Notes: generated from the sequence alone by a model not told the origin. A DNA stretch of 61,988 nt from Candidatus Peribacteria bacterium (GCA_040383945.1 JBEICN010000001.1:1-61988), one strand, 5' to 3'; numbered from the stretch's first letter, positions 16,123 through 59,894 are shown. Program-made: numbers and translations.

Positions 16123-16328
16123 TCCTGCAAGAAATTTTTCGCATACTATTTATGGACGAATTGCCTCCTGGAAGATGTTTTCGAGCGTTTCACGGTTAGT
16201 GTCACTCCAGTTTGGCGAACCAAATTGAAATAGACTCATTCGAACCTAATTTTGAAGTCCAAAAAAACCGCTTACCATAGCTGTAAACGGCCCTTTTGGA
16301 TTTCGTGAGAAATGATGGAATTCTGAAT

Positions 16329-16403
16329 TGGTTGCGGAGGTACGAATCGAACGTACGACCTCAAGGTTATGAGCCTTGCGAGCTACCACTGCTCTACTCC
16401 GCG
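16329..16403 (-). tRNA. tRNA-Met, initiator type (anticodon CAU)
   Basis: Anticodon loop CTCATAA. C1-A72 mismatch and an A11:U24 pair are typical of bacterial initiator tRNA. T arm GTACG-TTCGATT-CGTAC. Encoded CCA. Confidence 0.85.
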
Positions 16404-16552
16404 GTATAACTTACTTTGAATAAGTTCGTATATGATATGGATTATGGAGGAAAAGCAAGGCGATCTGCAATTTTGTCATTCCAACAGTTACATTTGAGTC
16501 TTCTCGAAAACTCTCCAACTTGAATGAAATGTCAATAATGGTAACTTATTTT

Positions 16553-16627
16553 TTGGTGCCAATGAGTGGAGTTGAACCACCGACCGCAGGGGTATGAATC
16601 CTGTGCTCTACCGCTGAGCTACATTGG
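16553..16627 (-). tRNA. tRNA with CAU anticodon (elongator Met or lysidine-modified Ile2)
   Basis: GCCAATG/CATTGGC acceptor, D arm GCTC-AGCGGTA-GAGC, loop TTCATAC, T arm GGTGG-TTCAACT-CCACT, encoded CCA. Confidence 0.8.
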
Positions 16628-16719
16628 CAAGTGGGCGGAGAATATGCAAAACTGTCTGAGAGTCAAGAAAAAGGGGAGAAAACGAGCGGGCAAACACCAG
16701 AGAAAACCGTGAATTTTAT

Positions 16720-16747
16720 TTGACTTCCAGGCCCTTTACTCTATCAT
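16720..16747 (+). promoter_or_regulatory. sigma70-like promoter upstream of fusA (TTGACT-16 nt-TATCAT)
   Basis: Hexamers at 16720-16725 and 16742-16747, 41 nt upstream of the fusA ATG. Confidence 0.35.
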
Positions 16748-16788
16748 TCGCGCGTCACAAACGAGGACACATTTTTTAATAATTTTTT

Positions 16789-21460: not shown

Positions 21461-23434
21461 ATGAAAAAATTTATTATATTCTGGTTTGCGTTATTTCTTG
21501 GTTTTAGCATTACGGCAGTGGCGTATGGATCTGACTTTTGATATCCATTTGCTCAAATTGCGAAACCAAGTTGTCGAAAAGAAGCATGGTCCACTTTGGA
21601 TGATACATGCAAAATGCCTCTTCCAAGAATTGTGAACGCAAATTATGAGTCATATAAAAACGATGCTCAATTTCGTAGGATATACACCGTTCTTTGGGGA
21701 GGAACTTACGATTACGGTTGGGATATAGGACTCGGAAGTCATCTCGGTGTCGATATCGCCACTTCCGCCGGCACCCCAGTTCTCGCCATTGCTGATGGCG
21801 TGGTAGATAGATCAGACTCGGTGAGTGGTTGGGGCAGTGTCATTACTATCAAGCATACGCTCGCGGATAAGACGATTATTTATTCCAATTATGCTCATCT
21901 CTCCCGCCGTGTGGTAAGCAAAGGAGATATCGTCCGGCTTGGCCAGAACATTGGAGAAGTGGGAAATACGGGGATTTCATATGGAAACCACCTGCATTTC
22001 CAAATTGATATTACCAATCAGCTTCATCCCTACTATTACACCTCTTGTGCCAAAGGAAAAAATCCTATTAACATAGTAAATGCTTGAGAATGCCGAGATT
22101 TTTTGACTACCCACACGATCGATCCGATAATGTTTATAGAAACTGGCACCATGTCAGTCATTCCGCCAAACGCAAAACTCATCCAAACTATCAAAGACAA
22201 GCCAAAAATCATCATTGAAAAACAATCAATAAAATCACGCGAGGAGATTTTGAACGAAGAAGCGGAAGAATTCTTAAAAAGTTATACCATCGGAGTAAAT
22301 CTCCCCTCTCGCGGAACTGCGGTAGTAGTAGGGACGCCATTGGAGTTCAATGTTGAAGTTCGTGATTTTAATAAAAATTTTAGCTCAAGAAGCCTTCCTG
22401 GTGCAGGAGTCAAGGTGAGTATTGATACAAAAAAAGCTGCAGTATTCCCAGATAACTTTACCCAGCTCTACGGCGGTGTGCGTCGAGTTTCCGTAACTCC
22501 AAAAAGTGCCGGTCCTATAGAAATAGTGTTTAGCATCTGAAAAAAAGAAATAGCTCGTAAAAGAATTTATGGAATCGCGAAATGATCACCCGTAATGACA
22601 AACGATTCGGAAACGCTCACGACAAAAAAATGATATATTGGGCAAGAATACGATCTCTATGTCTCCCCGCTCGTGCCAGGGTGATATTATGTCGGGAAAA
22701 ATGCCTACAAAGAAAGATACCGGCTCGAGGTTATTAAGGGGAAGGCAAAATTTTGCCTCAACGTACCAAAAGCTGGAACATCTTGCGACTCAGGATTGGT
22801 AGTGGAAATGATAGAATTTTCCAAAAAAGATACCCCAGAGGGATACTACGCCACAAGAATTATACCACTCGCACCGGGCAATATTGAAATACGAGTGACT
22901 CGAGTAGGACAACTCAACGGAAATTCTTTTAAAATTTCAACAGAAACGCCTATTGGGCTTGATAGAAGGCATATCTACTACGACACCATCATGTCCGGAC
23001 TCAGTAAAAATTTATGGAAAACACGAAGTGGATTTGTTGGGCAAGATCAAGAATTAACTACTGAAATGACCAAAGAATTTGTACTAAGAGTATTGAACTA
23101 TCGCATACTCAAAGCAGGAACAAATATGACAAAAAAGCAACTTGCCATCAATAACCGAGAGTTGTTCCTGAGAAACGAAAAATCCCTCGAATCTAAAATC
23201 TGGAGTCGTTGAGCATTCGCCGATATACTCCTCAAAAGCATGCGAGTACCCTTGGTAAAAAGTAAGCCCATATTAATGGATGAAAATGGAGTATATCAAG
23301 ACACTATATCTACTCTGAGAAACAACTATGGCTTCGAATGGCAAGATCAATTTGGAAAGCGGTATTTTCAAGCTGACAAAAAAATCACTATAGCTGAAGC
23401 TATGTATTTGGCAGAAGAAATCATGAAACAATAG
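21461..23434 (+). CDS. secreted M23 (LytM-type) metallopeptidase with a long C-terminal extension
   Basis: Signal peptide MKKFIIFWFALFLGFSITAVA. M23 motifs HLGVDIA and GNHLHFQI. Five same-frame ORF pieces joined over TGA. Stop TAG. Confidence 0.8.
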
Positions 23435-27841: not shown

Positions 27842-29077
27842 ATGGCATTCGAATTCAAAAAATATTTCTGAGAAATTACCCTCCTCCCGACCTGGTGGCC
27901 AAAAAAACAGTCTGGCAATTCGGGTTTTTCACTTCCCAAAGAGAAACCAAGTGCAAATACCAACACAAAGATTTCTCTGAATCGAAAAGAAAAAATATTC
28001 TTTTTGGATATGGTGGGTTCTTTGGTGGAAGCTGGAATTCCCTTGGTTAAATCCCTTCAACTCCTATATTTTCAGTCCAAAGAACCTGCTGTCAAGCAGG
28101 CATGTCTCTATGTAAAAACGCAAATCGAGCGGGGAAACAACCTCGGAACGACGAGTCGCGAACTACCAAGAGTGTTCGGGAGTTTTGATTGTGCCATGTT
28201 TGAAATGTGAGAGGCCACCGGAAAGATGGGGTACGTATTTGGGAAGCTTACAGAAAAAGAAGAAAAAATGCTAGAAATTGAGCGGAAGGTATTTGGGGCA
28301 ATGATATATCCAATTGCCGTCATTTCAGTGGCACTTCTTATGATGAGTGGATTGTTGATTTTTGTAATCCCGCGTATCGAAAAGATCTACCAGGACGCTC
28401 AGGCCATTCTTCCTCCTTTGACTCAGGGAGTGATTGCATTTTCTCATTTTCTTCAGTCATACGGTATCATTACCATAATCTTACTAGGGTTTTGCGGAAT
28501 CGGATTCAAGATACTGCTTCGCCAAGACAAAATACGGCTCGCGGTAGATAGGAGCATTATGACGTTGCCAATTTTTGGAAAGTTGATTCAATATCGAATT
28601 TTGGTGAGCTTTTGCAACTTCCTCTCGCTACTGCTTGCTTCAGGAATTACAATACATCGAGCTCTCGAAATTGTCTCGAGTGGATTATGAAACTCCTATT
28701 ACTCCGGCCATGTACGCGGAATTATCAATGATATACGAACGGGTACACATCTTTCTAATGCCGTAGGAGGGGCGTACCTTGAAAAAAAAATGGCTGGCGA
28801 GCCTACTGACTCGAATGAAATGCTGATTAACAAAGAGCGTCTTGAAATTTTTACCGTAGAGCTCTCTACATCGATCAAAGTTGGAGAGCAGACCGGCTCT
28901 CTTTCACAGATGCTCGAAAAAGCGGGAAAACGCTATGAAAAAGAGATCGATGTTCGAGTGAAAAATCTCAATGCCCTCCTAGAGCCAATTGTAATCATCA
29001 TTATCGGAGCAGGAGTGTGAGTGATCATTTTGGCGATCATGATGCCATTTTTCAATATGGCAAAAGTGGTCGGGTAG
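27842..29077 (+). CDS. pilC: type II secretion / type IV pilus platform protein (GspF/PilC family)
   Basis: Two GspF repeats, each followed by TM helices (first repeat runs VGSLVEAGIPLVKSL to GEATGKM; the second ends EQTGSL). Four same-frame pieces. Stop TAG at 29075-29077. Confidence 0.85.
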
Positions 29078-29080
29078 GAC

Positions 29081-30154
29081 CTATTCTTTGCTTGCAGCAG
29101 CAAGTTTAGCGCTCTGATCAGCAATCTGCAGCGCTTCTACAATATGCTTGAGTTTTCCTTGCATTATCGCAGGAATGTTGGAGAAGTTTGCGCCGATGCG
29201 ATGATCGGTAACGCGATCCTGAGGAAAATTATAGGTTCGGATTTTTTCTGATCGATCACCCGTACCCACTTGCGCGAGTCGTGCTGAACCGAGTGCGGCA
29301 CTTCGTTTGGCTTCTTCAAGTGCCCATATACGAGCCCGGAGAATGACGAGGGCCTTCATTTTATTTTGAAGTTGAGAACGCTCATCCTGACACTCAACAG
29401 CAATACCAGTAGGAAGATGTACCATGCGAATCGCAGAGTTTGTTTTGTTAACTGCTTGTCCGCCCGCACCACTAGAACGACATACCATAATATCCAGGTC
29501 TTCATCTCGAATGACAATATCGAGCGCTTCTACTTCGGGAAGTACGGCAACGGTAATCGTGCTCGTATGCACTCTCCCTTTGGCTTCTGTTTCGGGAATT
29601 CTCTGCACTCGATGGGTTCCACCTTCAAACTTAAACTGAGAATATGCGCCACTTCCGCTGATTTTGAAAATCTTTTCTTTGATACCACCGATATCAAGTG
29701 CATTTTCTTCCAGCACCTCTACCTGAAACCCGGATTCCTTGGCAAAAATCTCATATGCATTGGCAAGTTCACGAGCGAATAATGCCGCTTCATCGCCTCC
29801 CGCGCCAGACCTAATTTCCAAAATAATATTTTTGTCATCGTTTGGATCTTTTGGCAAAAGTGCCAACTTAATAGCCTCTTCGAGTTCAGGGATTTTGATG
29901 TCCGTTTCCGCCAACTGCATCTTCGCGAGCTCGATCAATTCCGGATCTTTTTCGGTAGAGAGAATTTCTTTGGCTTCGGCGAGGTTTTGGATTTGCGCTT
30001 TGTATTGCAAGTAGAGATGTACCGTGTTTTCCAGGGATTTCTTCTTGAGCATGGTTTCCTTAAGGAGTTTTGGGTCGCCATAAATATCTCCGTCCTGAAG
30101 TTTGAGTTCAATGGAGTGAAAATCTTCTACCAAATGATCGAGTTCGAATTTCAT
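29081..30154 (-). CDS. prfA: peptide chain release factor 1
   Basis: PET anticodon-mimic tripeptide (RIPETEAKGRVHTS) and SGAGGQAVNKT (GGQ motif). No in-frame TGA. ATG at 30154. Confidence 0.9.
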   Translation of the reverse strand: MKFELDHLVEDFHSIELKLQDGDIYGDPKLLKETMLKKKSLENTVHLYLQYKAQIQNLAEAKEILSTEKDPELIELAKMQLAETDIKIPELEEAIKLALLPKDPNDDKNIILEIRSGAGGDEAALFARELANAYEIFAKESGFQVEVLEENALDIGGIKEKIFKISGSGAYSQFKFEGGTHRVQRIPETEAKGRVHTSTITVAVLPEVEALDIVIRDEDLDIMVCRSSGAGGQAVNKTNSAIRMVHLPTGIAVECQDERSQLQNKMKALVILRARIWALEEAKRSAALGSARLAQVGTGDRSEKIRTYNFPQDRVTDHRIGANFSNIPAIMQGKLKHIVEALQIADQSAKLAAASKE

Positions 30155-30263
30155 AATATTGATTGTTTGAAGCGGAATTGTAGGGAAAAAATCGAAAAAA
30201 TCCATAGATTTTGCATTTTCCCCAGGTTTCGATACTATCTAGCCCGTTCGCGATATGCGATAT

Positions 30264-40061: not shown

Positions 40062-40113
40062 AGTTGCGTTAAAAAAATCAAAAGCGAATTATAGAAATAA
40101 TCTTCCAAAAAAC

Positions 40114-40136
40114 AAGCACCAAAAGGGAGAAAGTGC
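40114..40136. promoter_or_regulatory. CIRCE-like inverted repeat upstream of dnaJ
   Basis: AAGCACC-N12-GTGC: the same half-sites and spacing as the element upstream of groES (57990-58013), and the same GCAC-N13-GTGC geometry as CIRCE. Confidence 0.35.
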
Positions 40137-40367
40137 AAGATCGAATTCATGGATAATAGTTATAGTAACTGGCCCTCAAAACATAGAAATGATGGCGAAT
40201 TTCGCACGAGAAATACATAAATGCTGACCGAGCAGAACGAAAGTTCTTGTCTCGATGATTTGAAAATTTGTTATCGGTAAGTGGCGCTTTTCGGCCTCCA
40301 TTTTTGGAAGAGACAATTTACACTTTGGAACAGGTGAGCAATTTGTGCTTTGGTTTGACGAGACGAG

Positions 40368-41114
40368 ATGGTGCATGTTGAAATATCCGACTTTATCCGT
40401 ATGGTAGAACTCAAAAATATGTCCGATACACTTGCAAGATTCCTTGGAATCAAATCCGAACCCTCCGAATCCGAAATCCAACTCTTTGAGCGAGCTCAAA
40501 AATACCTCCGAGCCGTATCATGGATCCCCGGACTTCGAATGATAGCAGTCTGCAATAGCCTCTCCATGTACGCCTCAGATGGAGACTCTGATATCGATAT
40601 TTTTGTGGTAACTAATCCGCGGCGAATGTGGGTAACTCGAGTGTGCATGACAGCCATTTTTCAGATTCTCGGAGTACGACGACATGGCAAAAAAGTTGCA
40701 TGAAGATTTTGCCTTTCATTTTTTTGTACCACGAGTGTCATGGATTTTGAAAAAATTGCTATCGAAAACGATGTGTATCTGAAAGCCTGGGTAAATCATT
40801 TGAAACCGATAGTTGATATTGGGGGTTGTTACGAGGAATTCCTTGGGGCGAATGCTGGATGGATGGAGGTGGCCTCATTGAATAACAAGGAAAATACTCG
40901 ATTTCGATGTATTGAAAAACCGCTCTCGGTAGAGCGGCTGGGGTGGTGGTGGAATTTTTTGGACGCTTTGTTGCGTACCATGTTTGAACCATTGACCCTG
41001 AAAGAATACGAACGACTTGGGAAACCTTGGGGCATTATTGTTTCTGAGGATATGCTGAAGTTTCATCCGGGAGATCGGAGGAGGGAGGTGCGGGGAGAGT
41101 CTACGGGAAAATAG
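40368..41114 (+). CDS. putative nucleotidyltransferase-fold protein
   Basis: NSLSMYASDGDSDIDIFVV resembles the GS-x-DxD polymerase-beta-type NTase motif. Pieces 40368..40703 and 40740..41114 are in frame over one TGA. The start is uncertain. Confidence 0.45.
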
Positions 41115-41118
41115 CTAT

Positions 41119-43947
41119 TTATAATACCTTCTCTTTCCTTTGTTCAATAGGCTTTGAGATATCATCTGTGGATATCACTACCACGTCTATTCCCATGCAC
41201 ATAAGCTGATCTCTGAAAAGAGTATCAGTATCTAGAACATTTTGCCACCAACTCTTTTCTTGAGATTTAGACGTTACAATAGCGAATTCCTTATTGGATT
41301 CATCAAAATGAATTTTAGGTCGTTTTTCTGAAGTATCAACCAAAGCTCAAAACAAATTGCATAGAATTTCTCGTTTAGCAAGAGTAGACTTATTCAGAAA
41401 TTCAACATAAAATTTTTGAGTAAGATTTCCCTTTGCGTCTATATATCCTTGTTTTTTTAAATCAAATTCAAGCTCTAGGTGATCTTTGTTATCTAATATT
41501 GTTGCTCACGTAGTGGCAGTAGCAACAAGTCATCATGCCAAAATTGCAAGTTTCCCTTTCTTAGGTATTTTTTCGGCTACTTGCATCAATAATTTTGCAG
41601 TTTGACTATACATAGCAGGAGTTGCTCTTGCAGCATGCATAGCTCAGCGCGACGCATAACCAAGTGATTTAGCTATATCGATAGGGTGCATGAAAGCAGT
41701 TTTAGCAACAGTTCATGCTGCTCATTTTATATCTCCGTGTCGAAATACCTTTACTGCAGCCTCGTTTAAACCTCCGGCAATTCTAATGCCTTCAAATGTA
41801 ATAATTGTCATGCCTAATGCAGCTATTCCCGCATCACTTAATGTAGGAAGTTTTCCATTTTTCAAATCCTCAAAATTGACTCCAACATTTTTAATAAGTT
41901 GCCATCCTCATACCATTGGCACAAGTACGGTTTTGAGAGATTCCATAATTTCGCTAGAACTCGTCGCTTCGTCGGATACCACATTGGACATTGTTACCAC
42001 GAACGCACCTGCTGGTAAAATAGAACCGAGTCATCGGATTCATTCTGGAAACACTGCCAATAACTTGCGGAGCTCTTGAAAATTCTTCACGTCTTTTGCA
42101 TCCTCTAGGTGAAGCAATACTGTATCACCTTGTCGAATAAGTTTCATAGTATTTACGAAATCTCTCAAACGATTGATTTTTTCAATTCCACCTTTATCGG
42201 AACTAACTAGTAGATTTTGAAACCAACGCACATTATCTATATCTCGAAGATACTTTTGAATAACTCCATCGCCATTTCCAAAAAACATTCTCAGGTTTTT
42301 AATCTCTAATGAACGGGCAGGTGGTGCTCAAACAACTTCTTTGAGTGCCGTTTGAAAATTCTGAGCTTGTTTGATTTTTACTATTTCCGTAGCATCAAGA
42401 ACCTTGCTAAGTTCTGGATGCGCCAAGAATTTAGCTTTATCGTATTTTACTTCATCAAGAACGGAAATAATTTTCCAATTCTTTGTTGCGATATTCATTG
42501 CAGTCTTTAATTCTTCAATAATCTTTGCCATTCATTGAGTGTGTGGATTATTCGGGAGATTGGCAAATTTTTGATTAATAAGCTCAAATTCCTTGAAAAC
42601 CAGATGGTAATCACCTCCAGCTCACGTAAGTCACCGGAGTACGGAATATCCATTGGCACCGTTTGCAGTATCAACTCAGGCGGCTATACCGAGTTTCGCG
42701 ATATTAGCTATAATTCCTGAGGTAACTGCCCAAAATACTCCAAGTGGACGGTAGAGCTCCAATTGTACTAGCGACATCGCTTTTTCCCCTCAATTTGCAG
42801 AGTGTTTAGAAATTAAAGTATGGATTTCTTCAATGGTCATCGTCATGGGTGGAAGTCAAAGGCCATGAAATGTAAGACCAACAGCAGTTTTTGACCCACT
42901 CGAAACAGCTTCATAAACAATATGCTTAAGAGGAACTATTCCGGAAAAAGCAATTTTCCACATAAGTTCGGTAGCTCCCGTTGATAGGGTACCTAGAATT
43001 TGGGCGAGATTTTCAACAGTAATTTTCCCGCTTTCTTGAATATTTTTCGATATTTTTTGCAACTCTTCAGGGTTAAGATTGGTAGAGGTGATAATTTCGC
43101 GAATTTTTTTTATTTTATCATCCGAGAGCTTTGCTCAACCAAGATAGGTTTGAGAGAGATCATTCGCAACTTCATCGACCATTTTTGTGGTCAATTTCTC
43201 AATTTCCACTGGAGACATCTTTCAAAAAGACTCTAAAGCACTTTCTGCTTGTCCTGGTTTTTTTTGAGTAGTTTTTTTGCCACCATCAAGAACCTCCTTC
43301 CCCTTTTCTCATACCCCAGCCCCTGCCTCTCCGACAATTTCCGACCATTTCATCCCACCCATCAAGAATTTCCAAATATTCGAAAGCACCGCGAAAATCC
43401 CCATGACTCCGCCTGTTTTCAGTGGCTCGAGCACTTTTTCCAATGCTTTGACACCACTATATTCCATGACTTTTTGCCCGGCTGCATTGATGCTCTCTTT
43501 GACCCCTTCCATCAATTTTGTAGCCTCCTTTATATCTCCAGATTTAATAGCTTCCACTGCTTTCCCACCGATTTCTTTGGTAGAACTCACTGTCTCCTGA
43601 CTTATGGATGCGATTTTCCCAGCCCCGGATTCAAGTGCAACTTTGGCATCTTGGAGTAATTTTTGTTGGCTTGGGGAAATACTGGAATTGAGTCTTGCCA
43701 ATTCATCCTTAGTGCCGTCAACCATCTTTTCTGATTTTATTTCAAACGAACGCATCAATTGCTCAGCAAGTCCTCGGAATCTATCCCGCTCCTCTTTGCT
43801 CGTAGCAGTTTCTGCGCGTTTTTTGAGGTCATCAAGTATTGTTTTTGGATTCAAAGCTACTGACTCTTGATGTTCTTTGGTGGAGAGATTTTCGGTTTTA
43901 ACGGGAATGCTTTCCAAAGAAGTAGGTTTTTCGAGAGAGGAATTCAT
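41119..43947 (-). CDS. giant hypothetical protein (942 aa) with Gly/Ala-rich hydrophobic blocks
   Basis: ORF pieces 43309..43947, 42856..43062, 42328..42531, 42040..42288 and 41119..41343 share a frame. Hand translation of all gaps gives only TGA (about 20 in total). In-frame TAA at 43975-43977 upstream of the ATG at 43947. Stop TAA at 41119-41121. Confidence 0.65.
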
Positions 43948-44074
43948 AAGGGATTCGTAATGGTTTTTTCAATTTTACCGTATTTTTTGGGGATTTGCAA
44001 AAAACCACCCAGAGCTCGGGTAGTTTTTGGTAAAGAGTTATCGATTACTTTGTATTTTCGAGGATAGATTCGGA

Positions 44075-47000
44075 CTACTTGGTAGCTGACCTGAGTGCTT
44101 CATCTGCCGCCCTAAGCGCATCATTTAGTCGTTGGCCTACCGCGTCTTTAGCTGGTGCCAAGTAACTTGGACTTGGCTGTCCATCAGTTCCAAACTTCTC
44201 AATTGCTGTAGCTGCAACCCCAGCAACTCCAGCCGCAGCTTTTTGGCCAAGATCCATGACTTCAGTACCTTCTACAATAGCCGAACCGAGCCATCCAAGC
44301 CAGATATAGTTAAAATAGTTATTGGCAAATTCTCCCTTATTATTATATGCGTAATTGATAAAGTCTTGGGTACCATGTATTTTATCGCTTCCATTTACCG
44401 CAAACTCTGCACCCGTAATCAAACCTACTGCCCCGAGTGTTTTGAGAGAAGGAGTCCATGCAGTAGGAAGGATTTTTCCGAGTCAATCATCTGCGTTCGA
44501 CCATAGGTGACCATGAGATGATCTACCAGTAAACAAGGTTCGAAGGACTTCGATTTTTCCAAGTCCGTTACCCGTGAATGGTAGGGTATTGAGATTTCAG
44601 GAAAGCTTGAGTTCTTTCCACATATTTCCAACCGACCAATCCCAAAGTTTAGTTGGTATTTTTTTGAGGAATTCCACCCCGAACATATCTTTGACTTTGA
44701 CGTTCTTGACTTTGTCAAACATGGGATTACCAGGTGAAAAAGGATTCTTAAAAAGCGAATCGAACTTACCGGAAGTGCCTTTCCCCAAGATAGCATTCAT
44801 GAGTGCATCAGCTTCTCCTTCACTTAATGCTTTGAGCTGAGCTTCCGTCATCCCTGTGAAACCACCATTGGCTCACTTTTTTTCGAGAATGAATCCTCCT
44901 GCCTCGTTTTTGGAAATTCGATAAGTCTGATCACCGATTCGGATTTCTTTCTTTACCATGGTTTCTACAGTACTGTTGAAATTCTTGGCGAGCGAATTTT
45001 TGAGCATCTGGTCTGGAGTGACATTCTCCGCAATATGTCATTTGAGTGCTTTGAGACCATTTTGGTTCACTGGAAATTTTACCGATTCGCCAACACCAGG
45101 CTTGAAGACATAATCTCTGTCTTTGAGTGTAACCGTAGCGTCTCCGATATTTACTGACTCGCCGTCTTTGAGTCCCTTGAGTTTTGATTCGAGATTTTGG
45201 AAAAACTTTTCAAATGATGCTCTCGCTGTTGCGGCAGGTCCGGGCTGTATGGCTGTAGTCTGCTCAACTGTTGGCGCAGGCGCCTCTACAGGACGTGCAG
45301 CTGGTGAAGTGGCACTAGTAGTGCGCGATGACTTGAACTTTCGCACATTTGCATTTACTCCATCAACGAACTCTTTGATTCAAGCTACTCGCGCAAGAGA
45401 AGGTCCTCCAAGTGGGCCAATTTCCAGAACTTCCACTCCATTACTCCCAGAAATTTTACGAACTGACCAAATAGATCCGTCGTTGGCAATAAACTGAGGA
45501 AATAGATTAGGATCCTTTTTCATCTGATTTCGAATTTTTCGAACGTCAGTTTGGGTAATTTCGCGGGTGGTAAAAAGTTCACGATTTGCCATTGTTGCTC
45601 GTGAAGCAGGCACTTCCGCAGCTGCAGATGATGTCTCCGCGGCACGTGCAGAAGGCGTCTCCACAGCACGTGCAGCACTAATATCACGATCTACCTGAGC
45701 AAGCACTTCGGATGCTCACTTTTTATCTCCGAGTGCTTGACGCACCTGAGCTTCCTGAAGTCGAGATTCGGCCCGTTTTGCAATAGCTTCACGACTCTTG
45801 GTATACGCCATTGATCCACCCCGAAATACCAGTGGAAGGAGTGCCCAAGGAAGATTGTTCTTGAGTGATTCCGCAAGAGAAATGTCAACACCTTGGAATT
45901 GGGATCGTATTTGATCCACAGTCACTCCAAGAGTATAATCTCCTGCCATTTCAACCCCAAGAGCTCCTGACTTACCAATTTTTCCGATGACCCCAGCCGA
46001 GCGGACTACACGGAAGAGCATACCTCCGGCGAGAAATGTTCCAACATTGATTGCCCCTTCTTGCAGAGTCTCTTTGCCAGAATATACTTTCCCCTCGAGT
46101 ACCATCGTAGCTCAAGTAGTAAGAGCTCCGCCAGCAAGTGCGGAGGCAGCCATCATCATCGGCACTCCTGCCACGGAACCAACCGCTGTGGCAGTAAAAA
46201 CAGCACCAGCAATTCCGAGTCCGACAGCAAGTAGTTGATCTCGCCCGAGAACCATTTTTACCTTATTCCGGTCCTTAAGATCAAGCCATCCCGTGGTTCC
46301 ATACATATCTTTGAGCTGATTGAGACTGCTTATTTCCTGGGCTGTCAATGATTTTTTATCCAATTTCCCTATTGCAGATATCATGTCCCTCTCATATTTT
46401 GCGAAGCTAGAATCATATACCTTATCCCAAGCACCTTTTATAGTAGGATTTGACAATGTTTCACCAAGAGCTTGATCAAAAGTCTTCCCCTGCTGCACTT
46501 TTGCGTTAAGCATGGTTGTAATAAGAGTTTTGGTATTTGCATCCAAACTCTTCATAATGTCAGTTTGAGTCGGAAAATTCGGAGTAGTCAATTTTGCACC
46601 AAGCACACCCTTCAACAAAGCCTCTGCAGTAAACGAATCTCGATAATGCTTATTACTCACCCCCCCTTCTCCTCGAAGATACAATGCCATTTCATTGCTA
46701 ATAGATTTTAGGTATTCCGCATTTCTTTCTGCATAGGCATTGTTTTTACCTAAAATATACTTAGCATTAAAGTCCGTCATTCACGCAATCAGAGCTTTCA
46801 TAGCCACGTCAATAAGCTGACCGTTGCTTTCTCGAGTTTTACCATCGGAGAGCTTATCAGCACCCTTTGTAGCTGATCTCCAAGCTCAGAGTAAATTTTG
46901 AAGACTTTCTAGGTCTTCTGTATATGTATCTTTAGTCTTTTCTGAGGAAGATGTAGATGATCATGCTGCACTAGAAGAAGCACTTGCGGCAGGCGCACTC

Positions 47001-47866
47001 GCTGGCTTAGCAGGACTTGGGGCTGAAGCAGGTGGTGACGACGATGCTGCCGCTGGACCAACTGCAGAACTTGCGGCAGGCGCACTCGCTGGCTTAGCAG
47101 AACTTGGGGCTGAAGCAGGTAGTGCACTTGGTGATGGTTTTGGCTGAGCAATGTTTTGGAGCGCTGCGAGGGTCAACGGACCAAACCAACCATCTGGAAC
47201 TCCTTTCCGAGAAACGGAAGCTACCGCATCAATCTTTTTGATTTCAGTCTGAAGTGCCAAAACTGCCTGGAGAGTAGGATTTTTAATAGCTGATTCGAGT
47301 AGTTCAAAGAGTTGAGGCTGACTGGTCTTGAGCTTTTCTTTGATGGCATCAAGTTCTGTTTTTTGCTTTCTCAAAAATTCTCTGCTATAAGCAACGCTTT
47401 TGGGCTCTCTTTCTGATACCGTTTCTGGTTTCTCTGAGGCTTTTGAGCTTGATGTAACTTTTGAGTCAGTCTTTACTCAAGCATCTCTTAACTTTGACTC
47501 CTCAGCACGGGATTGATTCAAAACAAGATCTTTATTTCGATCTCTCTTAGCATCAGCCGCTTCTGCCAGCGCAAAATACTTCTCAATAATACTAAACCGA
47601 TTTTCAAACTCCGGACCAGCATTTCCTCATTTGAGTTTCCGCTCCGCAGTGATGAAAGCGGTAATGTCAGCACGGGTTTTCGCATCGCCAAGATTTATTT
47701 TGCTGAGCTTATTCCACAAACTTTCAATTCGGCTTTCACCGTATACGCTGTCCCAAGAATCAATCTGTGACTGAAGCAGTCTTCGAAGTTCCTGTTGTTC
47801 AGTTGGAGCACCTTTTTGAACGATTGCAGCGTCAGAGAATAGCTCTAGGGTATATTTTTGAGACAT
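44075..47866 (-). CDS. giant hypothetical protein (1263 aa): PG-binding-like motif, Ala/Ser/Pro repeat linker, hydrophobic Gly/Ala-rich core
   Basis: Nine ORF pieces from 47627..47866 down to 44075..44422 share a frame. The gaps contain only TGA (about 12). ATG at 47866. Stop TAG at 44075-44077. Confidence 0.65.
46982..47124. repeat. imperfect tandem direct repeat (two 56 nt copies, 87 nt period) inside the 1263 aa ORF
   Basis: 46982-47037 and 47069-47124 differ at 2 of 56 positions. They encode PASAP..AKPASAPAAS low-complexity linker units. Confidence 0.8.
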
Positions 47867-47977
47867 ATAAAGTAGTTATTTACCCTATCTTGCCACAAAA
47901 ACCATAAGTTTGCAAAAAAACGCCATTTTACCTATTTTTGAACAAATCCTTTGGGTAAAGACTCCCAAGCTCAGGAA

Positions 47978-48604
47978 CTATCTGATGTACTCTGCTGAAG
48001 GCACCGTAGGAGGAATAAAATACTCAGGATCCATCCCAAATTCTGGAAGACCTTCCCCAAAATCAGTTGATTGATGGAGTCCCAGATGAAAATATTTCTC
48101 TTCGTTCTCATCCATGCCAACCGTGGGACCAATACTCCAACCCAAATTTCTCAAAATATTACTTACTCTTCCGTTAAAGCTGCTCATACTCTGGGGAGTA
48201 AGTCCTACTAAAAGTTTAAAGCCATGCTTTTGCGCCATGTATTCAAAAAAGTTTTGAAGCTCGGCTCACATTCCGACTTTTGCAAGAGAGGAGTCTATTT
48301 GAATGGCGTTGGGCGGAATAATCACATAGCCAATCTCTGGATCAATGATGTAGTAAAAATAACAGGTTTCATCATCAGATCTAAGTCTATAGATTCTCAC
48401 AGAACGAGAAATTCAAAGTGAATGCGTAAAGCTTTCGAATTGGGATTCGATAATGCTGGGTTGAAAATTAACCGTTCTTCCATCCTCAAGATGTATGGTC
48501 AAAAGAATGGGTTGTATGATTCCAAAATAGTTCTTTTTAGACTCGAGCTTCATGTAAAACAAGTAATTTGCTTCTATAAAATCATATATTTTGAACTGAG
48601 GCAA
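47978..48604 (-). CDS. hypothetical protein (possibly GNAT-like)
   Basis: ORFs 48413..48604 and 47978..48238 are in frame over two TGA. The VGM[TGA]AELQNFFEYMAQKHGF segment faintly resembles acetyl-CoA-binding motif A. The start is TTG at 48604 or ATG at 48553. Confidence 0.4.
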
Positions 48605-55634: not shown

Positions 55635-57281
55635 TTAATACATTCCCCCCATTCCTCCCATTCCTTCTGCGTGAGCCCCATGTGCAGCAGGTGCTGTGGT
55701 TGCCGGTGCATCTATGATAAGCGCCTCTGTGGTCAAGAACATGCTCGATACAGAAATAGCATTTTCCAAAGCACAACGCGCCACTTTTTTGGGATCGATA
55801 ATTCCCATTTTGATCATATCAACAAATGCATCTTGCGCCGCATCGTATCCATAATTTGGTTCTTTGGATCGAATAATTGAGTCCACGATAAGGGCCCCTT
55901 CTTTCCCCGCGTTTTCCGCAATTTGTCGTACTGGATAACTGAGAGCTCGGGCTACGATTTGTGCTCAAATTTCCTGGTCTCGATTACCAAACTTTATATC
56001 AGCCAAAATTGCCGAAGCTCGAAGTAGTGCCACTCCTCCACCCGAGACAATACCCTCTTCGACCGCCGCCTTGGTGGCATTCAGAGCATCTTCGATTCGG
56101 AGCTTTTTCTCTTTCATTTCTACCTCACTCGCTGCCCCCACCTTAATTACGGCAATTCCACCTGCAAGCTTTGCGAGTCGTTCCTGTAATTTTTCTCGAT
56201 CATAGTCTGACTCCGTGCTTTCGATTTGTCTTTGAATTTCAACAACTCGAGCCGTAATGGAAGAGGTATCTCCCAGTCCTCCGATAATGGTGGTCGAGTC
56301 TTTTTTGGCGATGACCGTTTTGGCTCGTCCGAGATGTTCTAGTGTGGCCATTTCGAGCTTGAGTCCAAGCTCATCCGTGATTACCGTCGCACCTGTAAGA
56401 ATTGCCAAATCTTTAAGAATTTCTTTTTTTCGATCTCCAAACCCAGGAGATTTTACCGCCAACACATTCAACACACCTTGAAGTTTATTGAAGACAATAC
56501 CCGTAAGTGCATCTCCATCCACATCATCTGCAATGATGACAATATCTCGTTTACCCGTCTTGGTCAATGATTCGAGAATAGGGAGAATATCCTTAAAATT
56601 TGAAATTTTTTTATCGGTGATAAGCAGATGCGCGTCATTAAAACGAGCTTCCATTTTGTCTTTTTCCGTCACCATATACGGAGAAATGTATCCGTTATCG
56701 AATTTCATCCCCTCGGTGAGTTCTACGGTAAGTCCGAGTGTCTGTCCTCCTTCGATAGTGATTACCCCATTTTTCCCCACCTTGTTCATGGCATCAGAGA
56801 TAATGTTTCCAACCTCTGAATCCTGAGCAGAAATAGTGGCAACCTGAGCAATTTCTTCCTTGGTGGAAATCATTTTTGCATTTCGTACGAGCTCCTGAAC
56901 CACAGCTTCTCCGGCCTTCTTCATTCCATTCTTAAGCTCAATAGCGTTGATACCAGATCGAATTTCTCGTAATCCCTCTTTTATCATAGCATAAGTAAGA
57001 AGTGTGGCGGTTGTAGTACCATCACCAGCCGCATCATTCGTGCGGGATGCAGCTTCTTTGACGAGCTCGGCCCCCATGTTTTCAATCTTATCCTCGAGTT
57101 CGATCTCTTTTGCAATCGTAACTCCGTCATTGGTGATTTGAGGAGCTCCGTAACCTTTGGAGAAAATTACGTTTCGCCCCTTAGGACCTATAGTGGCAGT
57201 TACCGTTTTGGCAACTTTTTCAACTCCGTTAAACATTTTGAGTCGTGCTTCATCACCAAAGTGAATGTGTTTTGTTGTCAT
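55635..57281 (-). CDS. groEL: chaperonin GroEL
   Basis: [19 protein letters not shown], and a C-terminal GGMGGM tail. One TGA at 55965-55967. Confidence 0.95.
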
Positions 57282-58100: not shown

Positions 58101-59894
58101 ATGAAAAACCTTGGTCTCAAATTTTCTGCGATCGCTCTACTGAGTATAATCGCACTTGGATATATTCTTCCGCTCAAAGAACACGGCATACAGCTCCCAT
58201 TTGACACTGGCACCTACCGACTTGGTCTTGATCTCCATGGGGGTGTAGAGCTTGACTATAAGATTGATTTCGAAGATCTGAAGTCACGCGGTCAAGCCTA
58301 CAATGAAAAGGATGTTACGGAGGGACTCAAGTCCATCATCGAAAAACGAGTAAATTCACTCGGTACAGCAGAGCCAACCATTAGTACTGCCAAATACGGT
58401 GACGAGTCTCACATCATTGTGCAAATACCTACACAATCATTTGAAGGGGAAAATTTGAGTGAGGCAGAATTACGAGAAAAAAACAATGAATATATCAAAA
58501 ACGCAAAGGAGACTATTGGTAAAGTAGTTCGACTCGAGTTCAAAGAAGAAAAAACAGAAGTCACGGCAGATGATGTTGCAGAACGAACTACCATAGCCAA
58601 GGCTGCCCTTGAAGAAGCAAAAAAAGGAGGAGAATTTGCGAGCATTGCCAAAAAGTATTCTCAAAATCATGAAAATACTCGGCATATTACAGACGCCAAA
58701 GTCGACTTAGAAAATCTCCCAGCCGAGCTGAGTTTTGAATCATTTAAAAAAATTACCACCACCGGACTCACCTCGCTTCTCGAAGGACAACTTGCCGGTT
58801 CATTGACTATAGATGAATCTGGAAAGCCAGTAATGACAGCGGGAGATAAAGTATTTGTCATTGCAAATATTACCGAGAACACAGAAGTAACTCGGGAGCG
58901 GCCAAAAACAGGAACTGGAAATACTACCGGAAGCGGGGAGACGGCTACCATGGAAAGCTACAAAACTCGATCATTGAGCTATGAAGCACTAGTAATAAGC
59001 CAAAAACCGAGCCAATGGACTCCTGCGAAGACGGTCGCTGGAAAAATTCTAGATGAAAAATACCTCGTCCGCGCAGGAGTGAACTTCAGCCAAGGTTTTT
59101 CTCCTCAAGTAGAACTTACTTTTAATGAAGAAGGAAAAACTATTTTTGCAGAACTTACCAAGCGACTTATTGGTAAACCAATTGCTATTTTCGTAGGGGG
59201 AGAACTTATCACCGCCCCTACAGTCCAGGCTGTTATTCCTGACGGAAAGGCAGTAATAACTGGTCAATATACTCCTGAATCCGCGAAAAAGCTCGCTACA
59301 GATATCAATACCGGTATTGTGCCAGCGCCGATTTACCTAACGAGTGAGCGGGCGATTGATGCAAAAATTGGAAACAATGCCTTGGTAGTGATTATTCAGG
59401 CTGGTCTTATAGGTTTGGTTGCCATAGTGCTCTTTCTCACTTTCTACTACCGCATATCTGGACTTCTTGCTGGTATAGCACTTGTAATCTACGCCATACT
59501 ACTCGTCGCTATTTTCAAGGCATTTGGAATAGTACTCTCTCTTGCCAGCATAGCCGGAATGATCCTTTCTGTCGGACTCGCGATCGATGCAAATATCCTC
59601 ATCTTTGAAAGAACCAAAGAAGAGCTTCGAGCCAACTCTGATCTCAATCGCGCGACATCGGTTGGATTTGGAAAATCATGGACCGCGATCTGGGATTCAC
59701 ATGTCACCTCATTGAGTTCGGCAGTTGTACTCTACATATTTGGGACCTCCCTGATAAAAGGATTTGGCTTGGCACTTGGAATAGGAATCCTCCTCTCGCT
59801 CTTTACGGCTATGTGGGTATCTCGAATACTGATTTCTTTCGTGGGCGCAAAGTTCACGCATAACATCAAAGCGTTTATCGGTCTTACCAAGTAA
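58101..59894 (+). CDS. secD: protein translocase subunit SecD
   Basis: N-terminal TM helix, large periplasmic-type domain (LGLDLHGGVEL...), and a C-terminal five-helix bundle with the GLAIDANILIFER motif. Intact in standard code, with no TGA. Confidence 0.85.
   Translation: MKNLGLKFSAIALLSIIALGYILPLKEHGIQLPFDTGTYRLGLDLHGGVELDYKIDFEDLKSRGQAYNEKDVTEGLKSIIEKRVNSLGTAEPTISTAKYGDESHIIVQIPTQSFEGENLSEAELREKNNEYIKNAKETIGKVVRLEFKEEKTEVTADDVAERTTIAKAALEEAKKGGEFASIAKKYSQNHENTRHITDAKVDLENLPAELSFESFKKITTTGLTSLLEGQLAGSLTIDESGKPVMTAGDKVFVIANITENTEVTRERPKTGTGNTTGSGETATMESYKTRSLSYEALVISQKPSQWTPAKTVAGKILDEKYLVRAGVNFSQGFSPQVELTFNEEGKTIFAELTKRLIGKPIAIFVGGELITAPTVQAVIPDGKAVITGQYTPESAKKLATDINTGIVPAPIYLTSERAIDAKIGNNALVVIIQAGLIGLVAIVLFLTFYYRISGLLAGIALVIYAILLVAIFKAFGIVLSLASIAGMILSVGLAIDANILIFERTKEELRANSDLNRATSVGFGKSWTAIWDSHVTSLSSAVVLYIFGTSLIKGFGLALGIGILLSLFTAMWVSRILISFVGAKFTHNIKAFIGLTK

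What the first reader, a model, noticed from the sequence alone, without database searches (positions are those of the whole stretch)
41119..47866. Tandem giant ORFans (1263 aa + 942 aa) with Gly/Ala-rich hydrophobic cores: candidate envelope or host-interaction module
Fourteen ORF-track fragments on the minus strand collapse into two adjacent genes under table 25, 44075..47866 and 41119..43947, separated by 127 nt. They are co-oriented with the small gene at 47978..48604 and the RNA methyltransferase upstream. Neither has a signal peptide. Both contain long blocks of small-residue hydrophobic sequence that look like multiple membrane-inserting helices, for example LAVGLGIAGAVFTATAVGSVAGVPMMMAASALAGGALTT and GTFLAGGMLFRVV in the first, and GVMGIFAVLSNIWKFLMGGM, GVFWAVTSGIIANIAKLGIAAG and KLAILAGGLVATATT in the second. 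These are embedded in coiled-coil-like and low-complexity regions. The architecture recalls phage tape-measure proteins or large pore-forming or translocon proteins: a wall-binding motif, long helical regions and Gly-rich hydrophobic segments. No phage structural genes are nearby. The 942 aa gene uses TGA-Gly about 20 times, far more densely than housekeeping genes. Together with the 1418 aa ORF at 30877, about 3600 codons of this 62 kb window are giant ORFans.
Basis: partly seen in the sequence, partly recalled or inferred. Interest (0 to 1): 0.75.

Follow-up and report, generated by a model that had tools for sequence, protein, structure and literature searches.

The report
Gracilibacteria gene pair with swappable cassette
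Two large neighbouring genes of an uncultured, recoded (UGA = glycine) bacterium are real, always occur as a pair in related bacteria, probably sit in the cell envelope, and the second carries a 2.2-kb section exchanged between lineages like a specificity cartridge.

Summary
With TGA read as Gly, 44075..47866(-) gives a 1263-aa protein (A) and 41119..43947(-) a 942-aa protein (B). Codons aligned opposite TGA in homologues are mostly Gly, almost never Trp.

They are not strict ORFans or paralogues. A belongs to a rare family: 59 clusters among 1.84 billion representatives, none in Pfam, PHROGs, NCBIfam, PADLOC or PDB. A B-like gene follows the A-like gene in all seven loci with enough downstream sequence (GC 24-62%), in housekeeping synteny, so a prophage origin is rejected.

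Two A relatives carry a genuine PG_binding_1 domain at the position of A's "PDGWFGPLT" motif. The Gly/Ala-rich segments are only marginally hydrophobic, so "multi-pass membrane protein" is weakly supported.

The main new result is a mosaic. B residues 1-215 follow the species tree, but residues ~219-942 fall into at least three ancient allele classes (about 22% identity between classes, about 80% within) that contradict it. The cassette has sharp breakpoints and is AT- and TGA-richer. A's middle region is dimorphic. A conserved terminator and promoter separate A and B.

Best reading: a lineage-specific envelope module with an exchangeable specificity region facing host or phage. Function is inferred, not shown.

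The parts
44075..47866 (-). Gene A, 1263 aa (code 25; 12 TGA-Gly; TAG stop)
   Evidence: Open under table 25. Homologues at 63%, 49% and 42-53% identity in the syntenic loci L001, L005 and L006. Family of 59 clusters.
47147..47284 (-). A residues ~195-240: sub-threshold PG_binding_1-like motif (..LQTEIKKID..GVPDGWFGPLTLAALQNIA)
   Evidence: Invariant PDGWFGPLT in A homologues. It aligns column-for-column with the PF01471-scoring segment of P0041. Window A itself gives no Pfam hit at E<=1.
46937..47146 (-). A residues ~241-310: Pro/Ala/Ser-rich low-complexity linker with a 59-bp direct repeat (46979-47037 and 47066-47124, 95% identity)
   Evidence: Sequence. Repeat found by blastn self-comparison. 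The region is unalignable and variable in length between homologues.
45632..46969 (-). A residues ~300-745: family-defining core, a helical domain followed by a Gly/Ala-rich hydrophobic block ending in 'LAESLKNNLPWALLPL'
   Evidence: Shared by all long family members. In the AF2 model of the L001 orthologue, the helical part has pLDDT 75-95 and the hydrophobic part 45-64. This region is dimorphic: type 1 in window, L001 and L005; type 2 in L002 and L006.
46097..46237 (-). A residues 544-590: hydrophobic Gly/Ala-rich helical hairpin (LLAVGLGIAGAVFTATAVGSVAGVPMMMAASALAGGALTTGATM)
   Evidence: Kyte-Doolittle maximum 1.96. Hessa dG +1.05 kcal/mol, which is marginal. It is the most conserved stretch within type 1.
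44078..45289 (-). A residues ~860-1263: conserved C-terminal domain (beta-hairpin modules, 'LRTLFTGRSSHG', then hydrophobic tail)
   Evidence: Conserved in all five A homologues, including those with a type-2 middle. It follows the species tree.
47875..47920 (-). Conserved upstream element of A: TTTTTTGCAAA-N10-11-TGTGGCAAG..AAATAAC
   Evidence: Conserved in window, L001, L005, L006 and L002 despite saturated synonymous sites.
43999..44021 (-). Intrinsic-terminator-like hairpin plus T-run after A
   Evidence: Sequence. Conserved in 5 lineages with both-sided compensatory changes in 5 of 12 pairs.
43972..44000 (-). Promoter-like site for B: TTGCAA-17-TAAAAT
   Evidence: Scan hit. Both hexamers are conserved upstream of B in L001, L003, L005, L006 and L007.
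41119..43947 (-). Gene B, 942 aa (code 25; 20 TGA-Gly; TAA stop)
   Evidence: Open under table 25. The database holds the same protein with W at the TGA sites (P0003). B-like genes follow A in L001, L005, L006, L007, L009 and L010.
43303..43947 (-). B residues 1-215: conserved helical N-terminal module ending in GIFAVLSNIWKFLMGGMKWSEIVGEAG
   Evidence: 78-97% identity per window to L001 and L003, and 35-58% to L005 and L006. Follows the species tree in 1000 of 1000 quartet bootstraps. GC3 is 0.41.
41100..43291 (-). B allele cassette (codons ~219-942 plus 20 nt past the stop): class I here
   Evidence: About 79% identity to L005 but 22-23% to L001 and L006. Quartet (win,L005)|(L001,L006) in 1000 of 1000 bootstraps, contradicting the housekeeping genes. 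No nucleotide similarity to L003 here, while the flanks are 87% and 94% identical. GC3 is 0.28, and the region holds 19 of the 20 TGA.
47978..48553 (-). Small upstream gene (191 aa from M18), variably present
   Evidence: 66% identical homologue in L006 only; absent from L001 and L005 at the same position. No family hit.
40368..41114 (+). Convergent neighbour whose sequence carries a nucleotidyltransferase-like GS..D.D motif; it forms the 3' conserved flank of the cassette
   Evidence: Reading frame. Conserved next to B in L001, L003, L005, L006 and L009. No Pfam or NCBIfam hit.

Best explanation
A and B are a vertically inherited, lineage-specific two-protein module of Gracilibacteria-type (code 25) Patescibacteria, and it most likely works at the cell envelope. 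Protein A looks modular. It has a helical N-terminal part carrying a peptidoglycan-binding-type motif, then Pro/Ala/Ser-rich spacers, then a conserved helical domain. Next comes a Gly/Ala-rich, weakly hydrophobic helical block that could associate with or insert into a membrane, followed by a conserved C-terminal domain. Protein B has a conserved N-terminal 'adapter' of about 215 residues that evolves with the genome, like A's conserved ends. Its remaining ~720 residues form an exchangeable region that exists in at least three deeply diverged allele classes. Within a class this region is as conserved as housekeeping proteins. Between classes it is about 22% identical, yet still alignable end to end with hydrophobic segments at matching positions. 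Classes are swapped between lineages by homologous recombination in the conserved flanks: B's 5' 650 nt on one side and the downstream convergent gene on the other. A's middle region is likewise dimorphic and assorts independently of B's class. Such old, maintained, recombining alleles on a conserved scaffold are what is expected of a part that meets a variable outside partner, such as a host-cell surface or a phage. I therefore read B's cassette, and A's middle, as specificity determinants of an envelope complex. Shown here: the gene models, the code, the family, the conserved pairing and synteny, the PG_binding_1 domain in relatives, the mosaic and its breakpoints, the compositional shift, and the terminator and promoter between the genes. 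Inferred: localisation, A-B interaction, and the selective agent.
For: Gene models and code. Family: only 59 clusters at E<=1e-3 among 1.84 billion representatives, with a shared core at A residues 300-745. Pairing: a B-like gene follows the A-like gene in window, L001, L005, L006, L007 (hmmsearch 1.4e-95), L009 (3.7e-43) and L010 (blastp 3.5e-8), across GC 24-62%. Synteny with the RlmD-like methyltransferase, DnaJ and RecA, and with DnaJ and the nucleotidyltransferase-like gene even in distant L009. Wall-binding: P0034 and P0041 score 35.3 and 26.7 bits on PF01471 (cut-off 23), and P0041's scoring segment aligns with A's PDGWFGPLT motif. Mosaic: sliding identity. Quartet bootstraps: 1000/1000 for housekeeping genes, A's C-terminal domain and B's N-terminus favour (win,L001)|(L005,L006) (960/1000 for A's N-terminus), while 1000/1000 for B 240-942 favour (win,L005)|(L001,L006). 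dN for B's C-terminal region is 0.15 to L005 and 0.96 to L001, while for B's N-terminus it is 0.37 and 0.11. Sharp breakpoints against L003. The cassette has lower GC3 and nearly all TGA in all five genomes. The terminator and promoter between A and B are conserved with compensatory changes.
Against: Neither protein has a signal peptide, so a wall-binding N-terminal 540 residues of A would need an unexplained export route. Window A's own motif does not reach any Pfam threshold. No segment of A or B is clearly hydrophobic enough for a classical transmembrane helix. AF2 is unconfident exactly in the hydrophobic block, and the B model failed (mean pLDDT 38.9). No structural or sequence match links the pair to any characterised envelope machine. 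An A-B physical interaction is not tested. Only 5-8 loci exist, so the allele-class counts are small. High TGA use in B argues against an abundant structural protein such as an S-layer.
Confidence: 0.45

Rival explanations
1. A and/or B are divergent membrane or scaffold components of the Patescibacteria type IV secretion system, for example the VirB6-like or VirB8-like subunits that profile searches fail to find in Gracilibacteria.
For: In L009 the A-B pair lies four genes downstream of a VirB4-type ATPase (P-loop_TraG 96.6 bits, AAA_10, DUF87). In L010 three T4SS_pilin genes lie 5-10 kb upstream. PMC12102498 reports that VirB6 homologues are absent in Gracilibacteria and that their T4SS genes are not clustered with virB4. 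A wall-binding module plus a helical hydrophobic block would suit a monoderm channel component.
Against: No T4SS gene was found among the 18 window proteins scanned against Pfam, or among the called genes of L001, or next to A-B in L005 and L006. There is no sequence or fold similarity to VirB6, PrgH or VirB8. Adjacency to VirB4 is seen in 1 of 8 loci. The hydrophobic segments are far weaker than those of polytopic VirB6 proteins.
Confidence: 0.15
2. The pair is a polymorphic toxin or effector system. The conserved N-terminal parts act as trafficking modules. B's variable C-terminal region, and A's hydrophobic hairpin, are delivered to and inserted into a host or competitor membrane as a pore or translocon.
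For: The architecture of conserved N-terminus plus exchangeable C-terminus with a sharp junction. No signal peptide. Marginal hydrophobicity is typical of proteins that are soluble first and insert later (general knowledge of colicin-type hairpins and secreted membrane effectors). A PG-binding module could act in a host periplasm. The cassette is compositionally foreign.
Against: No immunity-like gene travels with the cassette: the downstream gene is the same conserved convergent gene in every class. The classes are homologous along their whole length rather than unrelated toxin domains. There is one copy at one fixed core-genome position. No known toxin, LXG, Rhs or CDI domain was found. No dedicated secretion ATPase is nearby in most loci.
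Confidence: 0.12
3. They are cytoplasmic or peripheral helical scaffold proteins, for example cytoskeletal, division or defence-related. The Gly/Ala-rich helices pack inside a soluble bundle, the PG-like motif is a relic, and B's allele classes reflect intracellular conflict such as phage sensing, or relaxed constraint.
For: No signal peptide and no convincing transmembrane segment. Both proteins are predicted to be almost all-helical. Window A's wall motif is sub-threshold. Variable sensor regions on conserved scaffolds are common in defence proteins (general knowledge).
Against: Genuine PG_binding_1 domains in two family members, at the same position. Pro/Ala/Ser/Thr-rich spacers typical of wall-spanning regions. 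No PADLOC hit. Within-class conservation equal to housekeeping genes argues against relaxed constraint.
Confidence: 0.15
4. They are remnants of a prophage: a tape-measure protein and a tail protein.
For: Long helical proteins with Gly-rich hydrophobic segments and a wall-binding motif recall tape-measure proteins. The top, non-significant BFVD matches are tape-measure proteins.
Against: The same pair sits between the same housekeeping genes in four genomes, and next to DnaJ in a fifth. No phage genes are adjacent. No PHROG hit. No tblastn hit in 50,697 phage records. Foldseek TM-scores are about 0.07.
Confidence: 0.02

Closest known systems
Envelope proteins carrying a PG_binding_1 (PF01471) module, e.g. 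wall hydrolases, or ExeA/GspA of type II secretion
   Same: Two family members (P0034, P0041) score above the Pfam cut-off. Window A keeps the core 'DGxFGxxTxxAL' motif at the aligned position, followed by Pro-rich spacers.
   Different: Window A itself is below threshold. No catalytic or ATPase domain is attached. The module sits N-terminal to the hydrophobic block without a signal peptide, a topology not explained by known examples.
Mosaic receptor-binding or surface proteins with a conserved anchoring N-terminus and an exchangeable distal part (phage tail fibres; Campylobacter fetus Sap S-layer proteins; type IV pilins). Comparison from general knowledge.
   Same: B's N-terminal ~215 residues track the genome, while the remaining ~720 residues occur in discrete classes moved by recombination at a sharp junction.
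   Different: No sequence or fold relation. No silent cassettes were found in the window. B's cassette contains weakly hydrophobic helices and is mostly helical rather than beta-rich. Surface exposure is unproven.
Ancient allelic dimorphisms in bacterial interaction genes (Helicobacter vacA m1/m2; Staphylococcus agr specificity groups). Comparison from general knowledge.
   Same: Deeply diverged allele classes are kept across species boundaries inside conserved flanks. Conservation is strong within a class.
   Different: The divergence is much deeper here (about 22% identity). The proteins are unrelated. The selective agent is unknown.
Phage tape-measure proteins
   Same: Length, helical content, Gly-rich hydrophobic stretches and a wall-binding motif.
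   Different: No homology in PHROGs, phage genomes or BFVD, and a core-genome housekeeping context.
Monoderm T4SS membrane components (VirB6-like PrgH/ConG; VirB8-like PrgL)
   Same: Large envelope-associated proteins. One locus has a VirB4 neighbour. These components are reported missing in Gracilibacteria.
   Different: No detectable similarity. Hydrophobicity is far lower than in polytopic VirB6. There is usually no T4SS neighbourhood.

Membership tests
Phage tail tape-measure protein | Sequence or profile homology to known tape-measure families | tested here: not met
   PHROGs: no hit better than E = 0.05, none a tape-measure family. tblastn against 50,697 phage records: no match.
Phage tail tape-measure protein | Located in a tail-morphogenesis gene cluster of a phage or prophage | tested here: not met
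   Flanked by the RlmD-like methyltransferase, DnaJ, RecA and GroEL in the window and in L001, L005 and L006.
Phage tail tape-measure protein | Structural similarity | tested here: not met
   Best BFVD match E = 0.014, probability 0.28, TM = 0.07-0.08.
PG_binding_1 (PF01471) domain proteins | Score above the Pfam gathering threshold | tested here: not met
   Window A: no Pfam family at E<=1. Relatives P0034 (35.3 bits) and P0041 (26.7 bits) pass the cut-off of 23.
PG_binding_1 (PF01471) domain proteins | Positional homology of the motif to a bona fide domain in relatives | tested here: met
   In alignment A7, P0041's scoring segment LQAELSKIGFYKSKIDGAFGKAT aligns with LQTAIKKID..GDPDGWFGPLT of the A orthologues.
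PG_binding_1 (PF01471) domain proteins | Actual binding to peptidoglycan and extracytoplasmic location | not testable with these tools
   Needs biochemistry or localisation.
Polymorphic toxin systems (LXG, Rhs, CDI, MafB types) | Conserved N-terminal trafficking part plus variable C-terminal part with a sharp junction | tested here: met
   B: junction at codon ~219.
Polymorphic toxin systems (LXG, Rhs, CDI, MafB types) | Cognate immunity gene immediately downstream that varies with the toxin domain | tested here: not met
   The downstream gene is a convergent, conserved gene (94% nt identity to L003) in every allele class.
Polymorphic toxin systems (LXG, Rhs, CDI, MafB types) | Recognisable trafficking or toxin domains | tested here: not met
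   No Pfam, NCBIfam or PADLOC hit. The allele classes are homologous along their whole length.
T4SS VirB6-like (PrgH/ConG) component | Profile or fold similarity to VirB6/PrgH | tested here: not met
   None in Pfam, PDB sequence profiles or Foldseek.
T4SS VirB6-like (PrgH/ConG) component | Polytopic membrane protein with at least 5 strongly hydrophobic helices | tested here: not met
   Only one segment per protein scores below +2.5 kcal/mol, and both are positive.
T4SS VirB6-like (PrgH/ConG) component | Encoded near virB4 | tested here: inconclusive
   Yes in L009. No in the window, L001, L005 and L006. Gracilibacteria T4SS genes are reported to be dispersed.
Classical integral multi-pass membrane protein | Several segments with favourable predicted insertion energy | tested here: not met
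   Best dG is +1.05 (A) and +1.14 (B), against -2.5 to -4.0 for SecDF, PilC and FtsH in the same window. A dedicated topology predictor was not available.

The most novel reading that the evidence does not exclude
A and B form the host-contact or feeding conduit of these episymbiotic or predatory bacteria. They would be exported without a Sec signal, possibly through the dispersed type IV secretion system. A would be tethered to peptidoglycan. The weakly hydrophobic Gly/Ala helices would insert into the partner's membrane. B's exchangeable 720-residue cassette and A's dimorphic middle would set host range, so swapping a cassette by natural transformation would re-target the symbiont.
Probability: 0.12. 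Interest if true: 0.85.

Novelty: new variant of a known kind. Interest (0 to 1): 0.55.

Why it matters
How Patescibacteria (CPR) cells recognise and exploit their hosts is largely unknown, and for Gracilibacteria no determinant has been named. This locus is a concrete candidate. It is a core-genome gene pair restricted to this lineage. Relatives of A carry a wall-binding module. B contains a sharply bounded region that exists in ancient, recombining allele classes, the population-genetic signature of a specificity determinant. Even if the function turns out differently, the locus defines an unannotated protein family. It also offers a clean natural example of intragenic cassette exchange in recoded bacteria. 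Finally, it gives a practical marker: the B class could be correlated with host or phage identity in metagenomes.

Tried and rejected
Family libraries:
- Pfam, PHROGs, NCBIfam and PADLOC on A, B and the small gene gave nothing meaningful.

PDB sequence-profile searches:
- The profiles of A, of B and of the core gave only non-significant hits: paramyxovirus F0 at E = 0.2 and MntH transmembrane helices at E = 0.13. Both reflect Gly/Ala-rich hydrophobic composition.

Database scans:
- Two JGI metagenome scans found no relative.
- The word-index protein search is nearly blind to this family, with 2-4 hits per search. Code-11 or code-4 gene calling fragments or mistranslates these genes.

Structure prediction:
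- AF2 on B (TGA-as-Trp version, 2 sequences) failed with mean pLDDT 38.9, so no fold search was run on it.
- AF2 on the L001 orthologue of A gave two confident helical domains but no Foldseek match in PDB or BFVD.

Other tests:
- Paralogy of A, B and the 1418-aa ORF is rejected (blastp E > 0.5; hhalign probability 0.3%).
- No silent cassettes or partial copies of A or B exist elsewhere in the window.
- dN/dS is uninformative because synonymous sites are saturated (pS 0.64-0.84) in all pairs.

Unconfirmed or rejected readings:
- An SH3b-like segment that I thought I saw in P0008, P0010, P0033 and P0045 was not confirmed by Pfam. I do not rely on it.
- An S-layer reading was considered and set aside, because B's high TGA usage contrasts with the avoidance of TGA in highly expressed genes (EF-G, GroEL).


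Full report
**1. Gene models and genetic code**

With TGA read as sense, 44075..47866(-) is one ORF of 1263 aa (A; 12 TGA, TAG stop). 41119..43947(-) is one ORF of 942 aa (B; 20 TGA, TAA stop). They are 127 nt apart and have no internal TAA or TAG. Neither start can be moved upstream.

I aligned A and B with five homologues each. Residues opposite a TGA codon are Gly 123 of 325 times and Trp twice, so TGA = Gly (code 25) rather than Trp. The public protein collection holds B with W at all 20 TGA positions (P0003), on a contig of exactly 61,988 bp from NCBI/ENA. The window is therefore a deposited contig whose products are mistranslated or fragmented in that resource.

**2. Genomic context**

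- Upstream and co-oriented lie a small gene and an RlmD-like RNA methyltransferase (TRAM + tRNA_U5-meth_tr).
- Downstream of B, the long minus-strand ORF 40089..41066 is spurious. The real gene is on the + strand, about 40368..41114, convergent with B.
- DnaJ and RecA follow.
- The 18 window proteins scanned against Pfam gave no phage or type IV secretion hit.

**3. Family-library and structure searches**

- A, B and the small gene have no meaningful hit in Pfam, PHROGs, NCBIfam or PADLOC.
- Sequence profiles give nothing significant against PDB.
- tblastn finds nothing in 50,697 phage records.
- A, B and the 1418-aa ORF at 30877 are not detectably related to one another.

**4. They are not singleton ORFans**

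Syntenic loci were recovered from a Logan assembly (L001) and from two GTDB representative MAGs: L005 (Patescibacteria group bacterium) and L006 (Candidatus Gracilibacteria bacterium). The shared order is GroEL, response regulator, histidine kinase, RNase HII, methyltransferase, [small gene], A, B, convergent gene, DnaJ, RecA.

An exhaustive HMMER search with an A profile against 1.84 billion cluster representatives returned only 59 proteins at E<=1e-3, many of them code-11 fragments. The long members share a core equal to A residues ~300-745. This core is a helical domain followed by a Gly/Ala-rich hydrophobic block ending in "NLxWALLPL".

In three distant loci the A-like gene is again followed by a B-like gene:

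| Locus | GC | Support for the B-like gene |
|---|---|---|
| L007 | 62% | hmmsearch 1.4e-95 |
| L009 | 62.5% | hmmsearch 3.7e-43 |
| L010 | 24% | blastp 3.5e-8 |

. L009 also keeps the convergent gene and DnaJ downstream. The pair is therefore an old, vertically inherited module of this clade, which excludes a prophage remnant.

**5. Wall-binding motif**

Window A's "GVPDGWFGPLTLAALQNIA" is invariant among orthologues but scores in no Pfam model. Two family members, P0034 and P0041, score 35.3 and 26.7 bits on PG_binding_1 (cut-off 23) just upstream of the core. In a 24-sequence alignment, P0041's scoring segment aligns with the A motif. I conclude that the motif descends from, or is, a peptidoglycan-binding module. 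It is followed by a variable Pro/Ala/Ser spacer that contains a 59-bp direct repeat.

**6. Hydrophobic segments**

The quoted Gly/Ala-rich stretches exist but are only marginally hydrophobic. The best 19-residue windows score +1.05 (A) and +1.14 (B) kcal/mol on the Hessa scale. SecDF, PilC and FtsH in the same window reach -2.5 to -4.0.

AF2 on the L001 orthologue of A (24-sequence alignment) gave these results:

| Region (orthologue residues) | pLDDT |
|---|---|
| 10-130, helical domain | about 80 |
| 290-510, helical domain | 75-95 |
| hydrophobic block | 45-64 |

Foldseek found nothing significant in PDB. In BFVD the best hits were non-significant tape-measure proteins (E = 0.014, TM = 0.07). 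AF2 on B failed. "Multi-pass membrane protein" is thus not established. Conditional or peripheral membrane association remains possible.

**7. The mosaic (main new finding)**

Housekeeping proteins are 78-95% identical to L001 and 63-93% to L005 and L006. A is 63%, 49% and ~38% identical, and B is 35%, 72% and 28%.

- B residues 1-215 are 78-97% identical (per 60-residue window) to L001 and L003, and 35-58% to L005 and L006.
- B residues 240-942 are 65-90% identical to L005 but about 12-32% to L001, L003 and L006, while L001 and L006 are 71% identical to each other overall.

Quartet bootstraps:

| Data set | Favoured split | Support |
|---|---|---|
| 1735 housekeeping columns | (win,L001)\|(L005,L006) | 1000/1000 |
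| A N-terminus | (win,L001)\|(L005,L006) | 960/1000 |
| A C-terminal domain | (win,L001)\|(L005,L006) | 1000/1000 |
| B N-terminus | (win,L001)\|(L005,L006) | 1000/1000 |
| B 240-942 | (win,L005)\|(L001,L006) | 1000/1000 |

Synonymous sites are saturated everywhere, so these are old events. dN for B's C-terminal part is 0.15 to L005 and 0.96 to L001, whereas dN for its N-terminus is 0.37 and 0.11.

Against the close relative L003 the nucleotide identity changes abruptly:

| Region of B | Identity to L003 |
|---|---|
| codons 1-218 | 86.8% |
| codons ~219-942 | undetectable |
| from 20 nt past the stop | 94.4% |

The three classes remain alignable end to end. In all five genomes the cassette has lower GC and GC3 than the 5' part of the same gene and holds almost all of its TGA codons. 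In the window GC3 is 0.28 against 0.41, and 19 of 20 TGA lie in the cassette.

A's middle region is dimorphic: type 1 in window, L001 and L005; type 2 in L002 and L006. It assorts independently of B's class. No silent copies exist in the window.

**8. Regulation**

After A there is a hairpin plus T-run, directly followed by TTGCAA-17-TAAAAT and then B's ATG. The hairpin is kept in five lineages with both-sided compensatory changes in 5 of 12 pairs. The promoter hexamers are conserved even in the 62%-GC L007. A has its own conserved upstream element, TTTTTTGCAAA-N10-11-TGTGGCAAG. The genes are adjacent transcription units rather than a plain operon.

**9. Interpretation**

The evidence supports a lineage-specific, probably envelope-associated two-protein module whose variable parts behave like specificity determinants. 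Those parts are B's cassette and A's middle region. They show ancient classes that are strongly conserved within a class and are exchanged by homologous recombination in conserved flanks.

The likely selective partner is a host-cell surface or a phage. Related code-25 bacteria are described as epibionts or predators with giant envelope proteins thought to mediate attachment (PMC8080830).

A link to type IV secretion is an open rival:
- A VirB4-type ATPase lies four genes upstream in L009.
- T4SS pilin genes lie near the pair in L010.
- VirB6 is reported missing in Gracilibacteria (PMC12102498).
- However, most loci have no such neighbours, and there is no similarity to T4SS parts.

A polymorphic-toxin reading fails the immunity-gene test. 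Localisation, interaction and function are not shown.

**10. Verdict**

The giant "ORFans" are members of a rare, unannotated, clade-restricted family pair. The novelty lies in the family and in the intragenic allele cassette, not in a demonstrated mechanism.

Noticed in passing
window 40089-41066 (-) versus 40368-41114 (+): The long minus-strand ORF next to B is an antisense artefact. The real gene is on the + strand. It encodes a ~250-aa protein with a nucleotidyltransferase-like GS..D.D motif and has no Pfam or NCBIfam hit. It is conserved, convergent to B, in L001, L003, L005, L006 and L009.
   Followed up: partly
window 47978-48553 (-): The small gene upstream of A (probable start M18) has a 66%-identical homologue only in L006. 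It is absent at the same position in L001 and L005, so it is an indel unrelated to A or B allele class. No family hit.
   Followed up: partly
L009 1275-9979 (ENA k141_978609, 246-kb contig): In this 62.5%-GC relative the A-B pair is preceded by a SpoIIE phosphatase, a VirB4/TraG-type ATPase and three unannotated proteins of 650-780 aa. This may be a clustered secretion locus.
   Followed up: partly
L010 1-5047 (GCA_028698305.1, GC 24%): Three T4SS_pilin (PF18895) genes lie 5-10 kb upstream of the A-B pair. The A and B homologues there use TGA-Gly 58 and 65 times.
   Followed up: no
window 46979-47037 and 47066-47124: A 59-bp direct repeat (95% identity) lies inside A's Pro/Ala/Ser linker. It is a likely site of length variation.
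   Followed up: no
window 16252-16779 (+) versus tRNA-Met 16329-16403 and 16554-16628 (-): Two tRNA-Met(CAT) genes lie under a spurious TGA-rich ORF (8 TGA in 175 codons).
   Followed up: no
window 29081-30205 (-), 58101-59894 (+), 16789-18933 (+), 55635-57281 (-): TGA-Gly use varies strongly by gene. It is 0% of Gly codons in the gene I took by eye for a release factor (29081-30205) and in the SecDF-like gene, about 2% in EF-G and GroEL, 25% in B, 29% in the GT4 glycosyltransferase and 39% in RNase HII. This is consistent with avoidance in highly expressed genes.
   Followed up: partly
window 27786, 37633, 43053 (+); 44004, 47919 (-): TTTTTTGCAA occurs five times in the window, including just upstream of PilC (27842), of A and of B. 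It probably represents the local -35/UP-type promoter signature.
   Followed up: no
   Followed up: partly
window 21461-23434 (+) and 27842-29077 (+): A secreted M23 peptidase with a Filamin-like repeat and a PilC (T2SSF) type IV pilus platform protein are encoded in the same window. They are envelope functions, but are not linked to A-B in other loci.
   Followed up: no
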